A stretch of 64,000 bases of DNA from the human T2T-CHM13v2.0 reference genome, Homo sapiens, in assembly GCF_009914755.1 (NCBI RefSeq), contig NC_060930.1; one strand, written 5' to 3'. A program made the position numbers and the translations under genes. Below the pieces are notes generated by a model, which did not search any database, had not been told where the DNA came from, and saw only the letters and a list, made by a program, of their open reading frames with translations. Below are positions 23,101 through 26,100 of the stretch, piece after piece. Numbering within the stretch: position 1 is the stretch's first letter; each line of letters begins with the position of its first letter.

Positions 23101-26100
23101 TTTTTTTTTTGAGAGAGCAAGTCTTGCCCTGTTACCCAGGCTGATTCTGAACTCCTGGCCTCAAGCAATCCTCCCACCTCGGCCTCCCAAAGTGCTAGGA
23201 TTGATTACAGGTGTGAGCCACCACCCAGCCTGCATCCCTCTATTTTTGAATTAAAACTTTGCTCAGCTGTTGCTGGAGCCCAAATGGGAGGGAAGCCCTG
23301 TGCGGCTGCCAGGAGGAAGAGGGCGTGGGATGATGAGCCACAATACTCACTCCTGAGAGGGTCCAGGCTGCTGTCCCAGGAGAGGGGGGCTGCTCCAGAA
23401 CTGCAGGGATGAGACAAGGCCCAGGGGCCCCTCAGCATCCATGAACCCCACTAAAGCTCATCCTTTACAGCACACCCCCACACCAGCCCACCTCCTGGGA
23501 CCCATGTACCCGCGAGGAAGTGGAGAAGACGGCCTGGGGCAGAGGGGAAGGTGGGCTGAACTTGTTCTGCAGGACACTGGCAGAGACGATCTGGGCAGAG
23601 GACATGGACGCCATGCTCTGAAGGGCTTTGTCCTTGGAGACCTGGTCCTGGGGAGAGGAGGCTGCATGAAGCCAGGGCCACGCTGGATGAGGCCAGGCTT
23701 GCTTTAGCGCCCCTCCCATGACCCCAGCAGAGTCCAAAGCACTAGGATGGCAGGTGTTCCTGAAGATCCAGGCCTGGATTCCAGCCCCAGCTCTGCTGTG
23801 TGATCTTGGGAGAGTCTCTGCACCTTCCTGGTCTCAGTCCCCCAAGTGCCCATCACCGCTGACCACAACCACAGTAAGAAATTATTTTATTCCAAAGGCC
23901 AATATATGTCAAGATATTTCCTCTTACTGTATGTCATGTACTCTCCTATTTTCTTTTTTTTTTTTTTTTTTTTGAGACGGAGTCTCGCTCTGTCACCCAG
24001 GCTAGAGTGCAGCGGCATGATCTCGGCTCACTGCAAGCTCTGCCTCCTGAGTTCAAGCAATTTTCTTGCCTCAGCCTCTGGAGTAGCTGGGATTACAGGC
24101 ATTCGTCACCATGCCTGGCTAATTTTTGTATTTTTAGTAGAGACGGAGTTTCACCATGTTGGTCAGGCTGGTCTCGATCCCCTGACCTTGTGATCCACCC
24201 ACCTCTGCCTCCCAAAGTGCTGGGATTACAGGCGTGAGCCACCACGCCCAGCCATTTCGTTTTTTTAAAATGAGGCTTGCACACCTATTAAGTTGGTTTC
24301 ATAATCTGTCATTTGAAAATCCTGTATTAGGTGTTAAGACCCTTTCCCCCACTCCCACTGGGGAGGGCTGTGCTACTTACCAGGTTCATGGCCTGTGAGG
24401 GAGAGAAGGAAGATAGATTAGAGGACATGTGCAGCACCAGGGCTGTGGGCTGAGGGACGTCTTTGCGCCTACCTCCACCCAGTGCCCATGGGTTTTAGCT
24501 TCCGAGGAGCCCAAGGAAGCTCAGCAGACCCTCCCCGTCCCCACAGAGGGAGTGCCTGCCAGCTGGGGCAAGCCCTGGAAAGGGCAGAGTGAGGGAAAAC
24601 AAGCTGGTGCCCTCTGGGTCTGTCCATATGTTCTGGAACTAGGCTCTGGGCATGGGGGCCTGGGGGTAAGAGGCCCCCTCTGCTGCACCGCTGTGGGCAG
24701 GGAGAAGAGCACACGGCCAGCGTGAGGCCCTCAGAAGGGCCTCAGTCATGAACCCCAGACTCTGAGATCCGCAGCTGCAGGACAGCCAGCTCTGCAAGGA
24801 ACTGCCATGCCCACCTCAATAGCCCTGCCGGCCAGTAGCCCCGGGGCCTCCTCCCTGCCCACGGAAGTCCCCATGCAGTTAGTAAGCAGCAGTCAGGAAG
24901 AAGGAGAAAAAGAAAAACAGAGAAGAGGAGGGGTGGGCCTTAGTGGCCCCCAGATGGTCTCCCTCTCCCTCACTGACAGGGCCCTTGGGCTTCCTGCTGC
25001 CACTTGTGTTTCTTTCTGGACCCCCTCACAGCTTCTCAGCCCCTTGCCTGTCCCAGGCTGGAGCCACAGAGCAGCGACAGGCCTGCACCCAGGAGGGTGC
25101 TGGGCAGGCCAGGCCAGGTGGCAGGGGCCCCGTACCTTCAGCTTAGACTGAATCTCCCGAGATTTCCGCCTGGCTAGAACTTGCAAGTGGCTAGAGACCT
25201 GTAGAGAGAGAAAGAAAGAGAAAAAGAACAGAAAGAGCGGAAGGAGAGGCAGAAACAGAGCTTCAGCCAGAAAAGAGGCACAGTGGGGCTGGAGAGCTGG
25301 CCAAGGAAAGGCCTGAGCTATGCAGAGATAGCGCCGTGGGTGAGGGGCCCAGGAGGGCTGAAGGCCCCCGCCAGGCACCCAACATACCTTGATGCCAACC
25401 TGGTACTCCCGCACCTTCTTCCGAGCTAGAACCTGTATGTGGCTGGACACCTAGGGGCCGCCCCGCGCCCCGCCAGAGAGGAAAACATAGACAGTGAGGA
25501 GGCACAGCCATGGGGTGGCCGCGGGCAAGGAGCATCCCAGACCTCTCATCTCTAGGGAACTACATGTAAATGGGGGGACCTTTTTTCTTTTTGAAACAGG
25601 GTTTATGTTGCCTGGGCTGATCTCAAACTCCTGGGCTCAAGCGATCCTCCCACCACAGCCTCCCGAGTAGCTATGACTATAGGCATGTGCCATTGTGCCC
25701 GGTTCAGACACCTCTTGACACTGCCAATTCTGTTCTCTTTTTGGTCTTATCATGATCAAGAGCCACAGTGGCTTCCAGGGCCACCATGTACAGCTGCACA
25801 GGTTGTTCACTGGCCCAAAGGGCACCAGTGAGGGCTGAAATCCAGCCCAAGTTCTGCTGCCCAAGCTATGTGTCCTTGTACAAGGCTGTGCCTAACCCTG
25901 TCCTCCCCGCAAAAAGGGTGACTTTTTCTCACTGGTGTCCTCAGAGGAGACAACCTTTTTCTTATTGGCACCACAGGTGCTAGCAACGGCCATGGTGCTC
26001 CTGTTGGCCACTAGCTTATACACCAAGGCCACATCCTCTACCAGGGATCTCCCGGGTACCACCGCCTGAGTCCTCCTGTCAACCCCAACCACAGCCCCAG

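What the first reader, a model, noticed from the sequence alone, without database searches (positions are those of the whole stretch)
25136..25450. Duplicated exon pair gives TEAD3 two alternative DNA-recognition helices
Seen: two 63-nt phase-0 exons 189 nt apart, 25450-25388 ([21 protein letters not shown], canonical) and 25198-25136 ([21 protein letters not shown]), both with intact AG/GT sites and open frames. Synonymous positions are heavily diverged while the peptide is conserved, which suggests an old duplication under selection. Known: this segment is helix 3 of the TEA domain plus a basic tail; from recall, the second peptide is nearly the TEAD2 sequence and TEAD1 has a similar pair. 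Inference: a splicing switch changes TEAD3 DNA binding, cooperativity or nuclear import. Including both or skipping both stays in frame, and the intervening intron looks too long for steric exclusion, so what enforces exclusivity is not explained by the sequence. The exon may already be in some annotations.
Basis: partly seen in the sequence, partly recalled or inferred. Interest (0 to 1): 0.8.

Follow-up and report, generated by a model that had tools for sequence, protein, structure and literature searches.

The report
Ancient alternative exon pair in TEAD3
TEAD3 carries two old, strongly conserved copies of one small exon that give its DNA-binding domain two different tails, a feature that is real and already annotated but whose function is barely studied.

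Summary
Two 63-nt, phase-0, AG/GT-flanked exons lie 189 nt apart on the minus strand. I call 25388-25450 exon a and 25136-25198 exon b.

It is not new. Exon b is already in RefSeq, and gene models from sharks to mammals contain it. TEAD1 has the same a-then-b pair, and a tree groups a with a and b with b. The duplication therefore predates the TEAD1/TEAD3 split. Exon b is the TEAD2/TEAD4-like form; the "canonical" exon a is the derived form.

The interpretation needs trimming in two places.
- Inside the Pfam TEA model the copies differ only by Ile/Leu. The other six differences lie in the basic tail, where b has RRKS (Ser102) and a has KKVR (Val102).
- Exclusivity is not established. I found no steric, U12, frame or RNA-structure barrier. 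Models with a, b, a+b or neither exon exist for both genes.

Exon b follows a 60-nt AG-free, CU-rich tract that forces a distant branch point, as in repressor-controlled exons.

The likely effect is on tail regulation (a phosphorylation site, nuclear import, cooperativity), not base recognition; this is inferred. No RNA-seq was available here.

The parts
25388..25450 (-). Exon a, the upstream copy, used in NM_003214.4. It encodes [21 protein letters not shown]: the end of TEA helix 3 plus a KKVRE-type tail, with Val at protein residue 102.
   Evidence: hub annotation. It is 18 of 21 identical to the TEAD1 upstream exon. It is 15 of 21 identical to TEAD4 in PDB entry 5gzb. Residue numbering is taken from the 435-aa a-only protein P0034.
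25136..25198 (-). Exon b, the downstream copy, listed under 'exons of other transcripts' in RefSeq. It encodes [21 protein letters not shown]: a TEAD2/TEAD4-like tail containing an RRKS motif.
   Evidence: Identity is 20 of 21 to TEAD2, 18 of 21 to TEAD4 and 17 of 21 to TEAD1 b. The peptide is identical in 88 of 94 b copies across bony vertebrates.
25199..25387 (-). Intron between a and b: 189 nt (3 x 63), U2-type GT-AG, in frame and without a stop codon.
   Evidence: (a 105-codon open read-through). Folding shows no special RNA structure: z = +0.78, and 75 of 100 shuffles fold at least as well.
25201..25260 (-). AG-free, CU-rich polypyrimidine tract in front of exon b: 60 nt, 92% pyrimidine, with only one A (near the 3' splice site). 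It contains UCUU, UUCU and CUCUCU motifs.
   Evidence: The whole a-b intron has 14 such motif hits against a gene-wide mean of 1.82 per 189-nt window. Only 0.5% of 1165 TEAD3 windows reach 14.
25261..25266 (-). Predicted distant branch-point region for exon b: cugAAg, with the A residues at 25263 and 25262, which is 65 and 64 nt upstream of the exon and 125-126 nt from the exon-a 5' splice site. An alternative candidate is ccccAcug, with its A at 25284.
   Evidence: This is inferred from the lack of any usable A in the tract; it has not been mapped. The only strict yUnAy match is CTCAC, with its A at 25341 (intron position 47). Five AG dinucleotides lie between it and the exon, which argues against its use.
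25451..25480 (-). Weak 3' splice-site region of exon a. It has a UAG acceptor, only 45% pyrimidine in the last 20 nt, and G-runs (ggcggggcgcggggcgg) between a short CU stretch and the acceptor.
   Evidence: The TEAD1 a exon likewise has a UAG acceptor with a displaced pyrimidine tract.
24381..24392 (-). 12-nt micro-exon (AMNL) that follows the pair. It is itself present or absent in database models, and it is the positional counterpart of the TEAD1 VTSM micro-exon.
   Evidence: translation; the tail is followed by AMNLDQ in 67 cases and by DQVSKD directly in 8. (VTSM in TEAD1 models).
29636..29700 (-). Upstream constitutive exon (65 nt) that ends in ...TRTRKQ. It supplies the start of helix 3 and sets phase 0 for the pair.
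   Evidence: Hub annotation. Database proteins read ...[15 protein letters not shown]....

Best explanation
This is an ancient tandem exon duplication, inherited by both TEAD3 and TEAD1 from before those two genes separated. It lets the gene attach either of two versions of the last part of the TEA domain. The part that reads DNA, VSSH(I/L)QVLAR, is almost the same in both. The difference is the C-terminal cap of helix 3 and the basic tail behind it. Exon b gives the family-standard [12 protein letters not shown], with a serine at residue 102 in a basophilic-kinase motif. Exon a gives [11 protein letters not shown], with valine there.

Shown: the anatomy, the paralogy and the deep conservation of both copies.

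Inferred:
(1) The switch mainly changes regulation of the tail (loss or gain of the Ser102 phosphorylation site, nuclear import, cooperative binding), not base specificity.
(2) The exons behave as two neighbouring, separately regulated cassette exons. They are not a strictly exclusive pair, so a, b, a+b and skip-both products are all possible and all stay in frame.
(3) In human tissues exon b is held down by a repressor bound to its long CU-rich tract with a distant branch point, in the manner of PTBP1. Exon a, with its weak acceptor, is used by default.
For: Anatomy.

Paralogy:
- The human genome holds a-type exons only in TEAD3 and TEAD1. The TEAD1 a-type exon is at chr11:12957210-12957272, 89 nt upstream of its b-type exon. 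b-type exons occur in all four TEAD genes. TEAD2 and TEAD4 show no second copy within +/-1.5 kb.
- In a tree of 16 exon peptides, the a and b types are split by a branch with 99/99 support. An AU test rejects grouping all TEAD3 exons together (p = 0.006).

Conservation (the query was an a+b region, which biases towards tandem models):
- At least 94 of 99 newly found proteins carry a then b.
- Taxa named include teleost tead3b, gar, bowfin, sturgeon, Polypterus, coelacanth, sharks, chimaera, frog, snake, birds and marsupials.

Position in the protein:
- The Pfam TEA model matches residues 32-98 of an a-only protein whose exon a spans residues 90-110.
- A skip-both model loses profile positions 58-66, and its score falls from 96 to 72 bits.
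- Reviews state that helix 3 binds the major groove.
- Among 91 single-copy TEA proteins from a 50%-identity library, 84 have Ile at exon position 5, while the tail varies widely.

Ser102:
- The Ser of RRKS is residue 102 in human TEAD1, and Val occupies residue 102 in a-form TEAD3.
- A review states that PKA and PKC phosphorylate the DNA-binding domain and inhibit DNA binding.

Non-exclusivity:
- Of 120 listed TEAD3-like proteins: 42 a only, 21 b only, 22 both, 35 no match. Of those 35, 30 are short fragments and 2 skip both exons.
- Of 120 listed TEAD1-like proteins: 48 b, 15 a, 21 both, 36 no match. Of the 17 proteins of at least 294 aa among those 36 that I examined, 13 skip both exons.
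- A mouse preprint treats the Tead1 transcript containing a 63-nt exon 4 plus exon 5 as full length, and reports exon-4 skipping in known transcripts.

Splice signals: both 5' splice sites are U2-type. Pyrimidine content of the last 20 nt is 0.95 for the b acceptor and 0.45 for the a acceptor. CU-motif density is in the top 0.5% of the gene.
Against: - I had no RNA-seq, long-read or junction data. The relative use of a, b, a+b and skip-both in any human tissue is unknown to me.
- Many database models are automatic predictions, and their tandem a+b forms may partly be prediction artefacts.
- The hub table does not say whether the second human RefSeq transcript is b-only or a+b.
- A zebrafish long-read study confirmed by PCR a 'mutually exclusive exon' event in tead3b. 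This favours real exclusivity at least there, although the passages I saw do not say which exons.
- Ser-102 as the PKA site is my recollection of Gupta et al. 2000. That paper was not held.
- No PTBP1 binding or knock-down data were seen, so the repressor is inferred from motif content alone.
- The conserved Ile-to-Leu change (Met in cartilaginous fish) lies inside the recognition helix and could still alter DNA binding.
- The structure model of an a+b protein was of low confidence (mean pLDDT 50).
Confidence: 0.7

Rival explanations
1. This is the first reader's model: a strict mutually exclusive switch in which each mRNA takes exactly one copy, and the two copies give TEAD3 different DNA-binding specificity.
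For: - The exons have equal length, equal phase and are homologous.
- a-only and b-only models exist in many species, sometimes as isoforms of one species.
- A tead3b mutually exclusive exon event was PCR-confirmed in zebrafish.
- The b-specific Leu (Met in sharks) at helix position 5 is conserved. Only 7 of 91 single-copy TEA proteins depart from Ile there.
Against: - No enforcing mechanism was found. The predicted branch point lies 104-126 nt from the exon-a donor.
- Both introns are U2-type, and both exons are multiples of 3, so there is no frame penalty.
- No unusual RNA structure was found.
- 22 of 120 TEAD3-like and 21 of 120 TEAD1-like listed proteins carry both exons.
- Six of the seven differences lie outside the Pfam TEA model.
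Confidence: 0.15
2. In human, exon b is a little-used leftover. It was kept by selection in other lineages or other tissues of the past, and now contributes only splicing noise.
For: - The selected RefSeq transcript uses exon a (hub table).
- A 2022 TEAD1 paper says TEAD3 has no cassette exons.
- No paper in the library contains 'TEAD3 isoform', 'TEAD3 splicing' or 'TEAD3 splice'.
- Muroid rodent models show substitutions in b: Cricetulus RRKSQEIQSRLK, Peromyscus RRKSQ, Mastomys [21 protein letters not shown], Apodemus VCSH. A frog model does too. This hints at relaxed constraint in some lineages.
Against: - The human b peptide is letter-for-letter the one found in coelacanth, gar, teleosts, birds and marsupials.
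- Its splice sites are intact, and its polypyrimidine tract is stronger than that of exon a.
- A neutral 63-nt stretch would not stay identical over that span of time.
Confidence: 0.1
3. The conservation reflects a non-coding role of the DNA or RNA, such as the RefSeq 'enhancer' 25028-25528 or a splicing-control element. Exon b is not translated.
For: The hub table lists a RefSeq enhancer feature over both exons. No proteomic evidence for exon b was available to me.
Against: - The conservation follows the reading frame. The human paralogous b-type exons keep 17-20 of 21 residues while 9-12 of those codons differ synonymously.
- The frame, the acceptor and the donor are all intact.
- b-only models give a complete TEA match of 95 bits.
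Confidence: 0.03

Closest known systems
TEAD1 exons 4 and 5 (human chr11:12957210-12957272 and 12957362-12957424)
   Same: The architecture is the same: a 63-nt a-type exon ([21 protein letters not shown]) upstream of a 63-nt b-type exon ([21 protein letters not shown]), followed by a 12-nt micro-exon (VTSM in TEAD1, AMNL in TEAD3). In both genes the a exon has a weak UAG acceptor and the b exon has a strong pyrimidine tract. The a exons of the two genes group together in a tree. The literature treats TEAD1 exon 4 and exon 5 as alternative exons.
   Different: - In TEAD1 the b-type exon predominates: 48 b-only against 15 a-only among the 120 listed proteins. In TEAD3 exon a is in the selected transcript.
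- The TEAD1 intron is 89 nt, with a candidate branch point only 48 nt from the a donor. In TEAD3 the intron is 189 nt and the distance is 104-126 nt.
- That mouse exon 4 is the a-type copy is inferred from its size and position. I did not see its sequence.
Zebrafish tead3b mutually exclusive exon event (Genome Res 2018, PMC6120630)
   Same: It is the orthologous gene. The event is described as a mutually exclusive exon and was confirmed by PCR (passages only). Teleost tead3b models carry the same a and b peptides.
   Different: The passages I read do not name the exons, so identity with this pair is likely but not shown.
Sterically enforced exclusive pairs such as alpha-tropomyosin exons 2/3 (recalled, not looked up)
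   Same: A long pyrimidine tract and a branch point far upstream of the downstream exon.
   Different: In that case the branch point sits too close to the upstream donor (about 42 nt, recalled). Here the AG-free zone ends 62 nt from the exon, and the likely branch point leaves more than 100 nt. The one consensus branch site at 47 nt from the donor is followed by five AG dinucleotides.
Repressor-controlled exons with CU-rich tracts and distant branch points, such as PTBP1 targets (recalled class)
   Same: A 60-nt AG-free tract that is 92% pyrimidine. The intron has UCUU x5, UUCU x7 and CUCUCU x2, and its motif density is in the top 0.5% of the gene.
   Different: No binding or knock-down evidence was seen. 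A long pyrimidine tract alone can also simply make a strong acceptor.
TEAD1 micro-exon 6 regulated by RBFOX2 (NAR 2022, PMC9410899)
   Same: It is alternative splicing in the same short region, just behind the TEA domain, with reported effects on YAP-TEAD activity.
   Different: It is a different exon (12 nt). Near the TEAD3 pair I found one UGCAUG, at 24877, in 6.2 kb. That is about what chance gives by my own estimate.

Membership tests
Mutually exclusive exon (MXE) pair | Adjacent homologous exons of equal length and equal phase that encode the same part of the protein | tested here: met
   Both exons are 63 nt and phase 0. They share 14 of 21 residues and 40 of 63 bases, and lie 189 nt apart.
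Mutually exclusive exon (MXE) pair | Exactly one of the two exons is present in each mature mRNA | tested here: inconclusive
   No transcript reads were available. Gene models show a only (42), b only (21) and both (22) among the 120 listed TEAD3-like proteins, plus 2 that skip both exons. A zebrafish PCR result supports exclusivity.
Mutually exclusive exon (MXE) pair | A known enforcing mechanism: branch point too near the upstream donor, U2/U12 incompatibility, frame shift with NMD, or competing RNA pairing | tested here: not met
   - The likely branch point is 104-126 nt from the donor.
- Both donors are GT(A)-type U2 sites.
- 63 + 63 nt stays in frame.
- Fold z-score is +0.78.
TEA/ATTS DNA-binding domain (Pfam PF01285), helix 3 | The sequence matches the C-terminal end of the TEA model and the helix-3 segment of solved TEAD structures | tested here: met
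   - Both peptides align to residues 66-86 of 5gzb_A: b at E = 3.6e-6, a at E = 1.6e-3.
- a-only, b-only and a+b proteins all match PF01285 positions 2-66 of 68, at 95-101 bits.
- The skip-both protein stops at position 57, at 72 bits.
Basophilic-kinase (PKA-type) site R-R-x-S | Arg at -3 and -2 relative to a Ser or Thr | tested here: met
   Exon b has R-R-K-S. Exon a has R-K-K-V and so lacks the phospho-acceptor. The equivalent Ser is residue 102 in human TEAD1.
Basophilic-kinase (PKA-type) site R-R-x-S | Actual phosphorylation of this serine, with an effect on DNA binding | not testable with these tools
   A review says that PKA and PKC phosphorylate the DNA-binding domain and inhibit DNA binding. 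The site number is recalled, and the primary paper was not held. I saw nothing on TEAD3 exon b.
Repressed exon with a distant branch point and a CU-rich tract (PTBP1-type) | A long AG-free zone and a pyrimidine tract with UCUU/CUCUCU motifs upstream of the exon | tested here: met
   The AG-free tract is 60 nt and 92% pyrimidine, with one A. The intron has 14 motif hits against a gene mean of 1.82.
Repressed exon with a distant branch point and a CU-rich tract (PTBP1-type) | Repressor binding, and de-repression of the exon on depletion of the repressor | not testable with these tools
   No CLIP or knock-down data could be reached.

The most novel reading that the evidence does not exclude
Exon choice is a phospho-switch selector conserved for more than 400 million years. 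Exon b installs Ser102 in an RRKS motif at the end of the recognition helix. This would make DNA binding by TEAD3 (and TEAD1) sensitive to PKA/PKC-type kinases, as in TEAD2 and TEAD4. Exon a replaces the serine with valine and yields a kinase-blind TEAD. Splicing would then decide, tissue by tissue, whether Hippo-pathway output can be shut off by cAMP or PKC signalling. The in-frame a+b form would be a third state, with a second basic helix.
Probability: 0.3. Interest if true: 0.6.

Novelty: already known. Interest (0 to 1): 0.35.

Why it matters
TEAD proteins are the DNA-binding end of the Hippo/YAP pathway and are drug targets. Most work treats each TEAD as a single protein.

The standard TEAD3 used in experiments carries the derived exon-a tail, which lacks the serine-containing RRKS motif present in TEAD1, TEAD2 and TEAD4. 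An alternative exon, conserved from bony fish to man with a close variant in sharks, restores that motif. If the two forms differ in kinase sensitivity, nuclear import or cooperative binding, results obtained with one isoform would not carry over to the other.

A recent paper states that TEAD3 has no cassette exons. My full-text searches found no paper on TEAD3 isoforms. The feature is therefore annotated but functionally unexplored.

Muroid rodents show substitutions in exon b, so mouse may be a poor model for it.

Tried and rejected
- RNA structure as the enforcing device. Folding 25120-25470 gave z = +0.78, and 75 of 100 shuffles folded at least as well. Rejected.
- Steric exclusion. The only strict yUnAy site (A at 25341, 47 nt from the exon-a donor) would fit this model. 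Five AG dinucleotides lie between it and exon b, and the AG-free zone starts only at 25260. Judged unlikely, but not excluded without branch-point mapping.
- U12 incompatibility. Both donors are GTATGT and GTACGG, which are U2-type. Rejected.
- RBFOX control. One UGCAUG (24877) was found in 6.2 kb between exon 3 and the exon after the micro-exon. This is about the chance expectation by my own estimate. No support.
- A relic a-type exon in TEAD2 or TEAD4. None was found genome-wide at E <= 10 or within +/-1.5 kb.
- Hatje et al. 2017. Their readable supplement lists a TEAD4 cluster, not TEAD3 or TEAD1. The main MXE tables are old .xls files that could not be read, so whether TEAD3 was tested there stays open.
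- A tandem pair outside vertebrate-type TEADs. Among 141 newly fetched representatives of a 50%-identity library, 5 have adjacent copies, and all are of TEAD1/TEAD3 type. One protein (P0480) has three non-adjacent copies. The library carries no names, and the isoform held is arbitrary, so this says little about invertebrates.
- Structure of an a+b protein. I ran AlphaFold2 on bird protein P0124 with a 32-row alignment. Mean pLDDT was 50. One continuous helix 104-148 ran through a and b, with pLDDT under 50 at the junction. This is too weak to use as evidence.
- Literature that led nowhere for this pair: PMC5867882, PMC12490864, PMC7438495, PMC8694039 and PMC11046300. In PMC12941069 the rat 'exon 4' isoforms differ by about 11 bp, so that event is the micro-exon and not this pair.
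- Papers not held: Azakie et al. 1996 on chick DTEF-1A/B and Gupta et al. 2000. My memory that DTEF-1A/B differ at the end of the TEA domain is unverified.
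Full report
**Observation.**
On the minus strand, 25450-25388 reads [21 protein letters not shown] and 25198-25136 reads [21 protein letters not shown]. I call them exon a and exon b. 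Each is 63 nt, preceded by AG and followed by GT. They are separated by a 189-nt intron that is itself in frame and open. Upstream coding lengths (202 + 65 nt, hub table) put both exons in phase 0.

The copies share 40 of 63 bases and 14 of 21 residues. Of the 14 conserved residues, 6 use different codons. Among 14 open AG-63nt-GT windows in the 3-kb locus, only these two resemble TEA helix 3 (scores 101 and 97; next best -3).

**What the two copies are.**
Against solved structures, both peptides align to residues 66-86 of the TEAD4 chain 5gzb_A. Exon b matches at 18 of 21 residues and exon a at 15 of 21.

A six-frame search of the window's own assembly (human T2T) found b-type exons in TEAD2 (20/21), TEAD4 (18/21) and TEAD1 (17/21). 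It found an a-type exon in TEAD1 only, 18 of 21 identical to TEAD3 a, lying 89 nt upstream of the TEAD1 b exon. TEAD2 and TEAD4 show no second copy.

In a maximum-likelihood tree of 16 exon peptides (human, chimaera, shark, gar, Danio, salmon), the a and b types are separated with 99/99 support. An AU test rejects holding all TEAD3 exons together (p = 0.006). Two caveats apply: the alignment has only 21 columns, and the groups were named after I had seen the sequences.

The simplest reading is one duplication before TEAD1 and TEAD3 diverged, with loss of exon a in TEAD2 and TEAD4. So the exon in the selected TEAD3 transcript is the derived copy, and the 'alternative' exon is the family-standard one.

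**Conservation and annotation.**
The hub table already lists 25136-25198 under 'exons of other transcripts'. I searched a large protein collection with the TEAD3 first coding exon. There were 3391 hits with E <= 0.001, of which the best 120 were listed. Of those 120:
- 42 carry a only, 21 carry b only and 22 carry both.
- 35 matched neither pattern. Of these, 30 are fragments of 121-262 aa, 2 quail models skip both exons, and 3 are odd forms.

A second search used an a+b region as query, so it is biased towards tandem forms. It listed 99 further proteins, at least 94 of which carry a then b. They come from teleost tead3b, gar, bowfin, sturgeon, paddlefish, Polypterus, coelacanth, sharks, chimaera, a frog, a snake, birds and a marsupial. 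One partial 'Lampetra' entry may be contamination.

The b peptide is identical to the human one in 88 of 94 copies. Cartilaginous fish have [21 protein letters not shown].

The same census for TEAD1 (120 listed) gave 48 b-only, 15 a-only, 21 a+b and 36 without a match. Of the 17 proteins of at least 294 aa among those 36 that I examined, 13 skip both exons.

**What differs in the protein.**
The Pfam TEA model matches residues 32-98 of a 435-aa a-only protein in which exon a spans residues 90-110. It matches a-only, b-only and a+b proteins equally (95-101 bits). It loses its last positions in a skip-both protein (72 bits).

Only the Ile/Leu difference (exon position 5) lies inside the model. 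The other six differences (positions 11, 13, 16, 18, 19, 20) lie in the tail.

Reviews describe helix 3 as the recognition helix in the major groove (passages). In 91 single-copy TEA proteins from a 50%-identity library, the first ten residues are almost fixed (Ile at position 5 in 84 of 91), while the tail varies widely.

Exon b carries RRKS. The same serine is residue 102 in human TEAD1, and a-form TEAD3 has Val102. A review states that PKA and PKC phosphorylate the DNA-binding domain and inhibit DNA binding. That the PKA site is Ser-102 is my recollection; the primary paper was not held.

I therefore read the switch as changing tail regulation more than base recognition. This is inference. 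The conserved Leu or Met in exon b leaves room for an effect on DNA contact.

**Is the pair mutually exclusive?**
I found nothing that would enforce exclusivity.
- Both donors are U2-type.
- Double inclusion and double skipping both stay in frame.
- The region folds no better than shuffles (z = +0.78).
- The 60 nt before exon b contain no AG and a single A near the acceptor. The branch point must therefore lie at or beyond cugAAg (25263/25262) or ccccAcug (25284), which is 104-126 nt from the exon-a donor.
- The one consensus branch site, 47 nt from the donor (A at 25341), is followed by five AGs.

In TEAD1 the intron is 89 nt and the candidate branch point is 48 nt from the donor, which is borderline. 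Even so, a mouse preprint treats the Tead1 transcript containing a 63-nt exon 4 together with exon 5 as full length, and reports exon-4 skipping in known transcripts (passages). That exon 4 is the a-type copy is my inference from its size and position.

Against this, a zebrafish long-read study confirmed a tead3b 'mutually exclusive exon' by PCR (passages; the exons are not named there).

Without read data I rate strict exclusivity as unproven and somewhat unlikely.

**Splicing signals.**
- Exon a has a weak acceptor: UAG, 45% pyrimidine in the last 20 nt, and G-runs.
- Exon b has a very strong acceptor: 95% pyrimidine in the last 20 nt.
- The a-b intron has 14 UCUU/UUCU/CUCUCU hits against a gene-wide mean of 1.82 per 189-nt window. 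Only 0.5% of 1165 windows reach that number.

The selected human transcript skips the exon with the stronger acceptor. This suggests active repression through the CU tract, in the manner of PTBP1 targets with distant branch points. That class is recalled, not looked up. It is a hypothesis only.

**Comparison with what is known, and novelty.**
The exon is annotated, and the TEAD1 counterpart is discussed as alternative exons 4 and 5. The fish event is published. The feature itself is therefore already known.

What I did not find in print is any functional account of TEAD3 isoforms.
- Full-text searches for TEAD3 with 'mutually exclusive exons' or 'MXE' returned 2 papers each. Only the zebrafish paper bears on the pair.
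- Of 7 papers holding TEAD, 'mutually exclusive exon' and 'DNA-binding domain', I opened 2. In both, 'mutually exclusive' occurs only in general descriptions of splicing types. The other 5 I saw only as a search listing.
- For TEAD1, 29 papers hold both terms. I opened the top one, which concerns the micro-exon.
- 'TEAD3 isoform', 'TEAD3 splicing', 'TEAD3 splice' and 'DTEF-1 isoform' gave 0 papers.
- One 2022 paper says TEAD3 has no cassette exons.
- Supplement tables of Hatje et al. 2017 that might list the pair could not be read.

**Verdict.**
This is a real, ancient, annotated alternative exon pair. Interest is moderate: the kinase-site reading is testable and would matter to the Hippo field, but nothing here is categorically new.

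Noticed in passing
L004:1349-1411 and L004:1501-1563 (human chr11:12957210-12957272 and 12957362-12957424): TEAD1 carries the same a-then-b exon pair with an 89-nt intron. A candidate branch point (guuAc) lies only 48 nt from the a donor and is followed at once by an AG and then a 37-nt AG-free tract. This is close to the steric limit, unlike TEAD3.
   Followed up: partly
Proteins P0095, P0100, P0116, P0117 (muroid rodents) and P0174 (frog): Exon b shows amino-acid substitutions in muroid rodent models (RRKSQ..., VCSH..., [21 protein letters not shown]) and in one frog model (RCKSRV). It is otherwise identical from teleosts to primates. This may mean relaxed constraint in those lineages, or errors in the gene models.
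   Followed up: no
window 24381-24392 (-): The 12-nt micro-exon AMNL behind the pair is itself present or absent in database models. It is the positional twin of the RBFOX2-regulated VTSM micro-exon of TEAD1. The three small exons form one alternative module just behind the TEA domain.
   Followed up: partly
window 25136-25450 (-): The a-b intron is exactly 189 nt (3 x 63) and has no stop codon in frame, so intron retention would also stay in frame. Some database models (for example P0021 and P0024) read into this intron.
   Followed up: no
Proteins P0114, P0115 (quail TEAD3); P0241-P0246, P0253, P0255, P0302, P0306, P0325, P0328, P0339 (TEAD1): These gene models join exon 3 directly to the micro-exon or to the next exon, leaving out both helix-3 exons. 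The Pfam TEA match is then cut short (72 against 96 bits). Such forms would probably not bind DNA.
   Followed up: partly
window 24877 (-): A single UGCAUG lies 259 nt downstream of exon b. It is one site in 6.2 kb, about what chance gives, so it is no evidence for RBFOX control.
   Followed up: yes
Protein P0005 (source metaclust, 549 aa) and P0480 (303 aa): P0005 holds a repeated N-terminal TEA segment and was the top hit for both first-exon queries. P0480 has three non-adjacent helix-3-like segments. Both may be fused or mis-assembled models.
   Followed up: no
window 31736-31738 (-): The annotated TEAD3 coding start translates as Ile (ATA-type codon) rather than Met. This fits my recollection that TEAD genes use non-AUG starts.
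   Followed up: no
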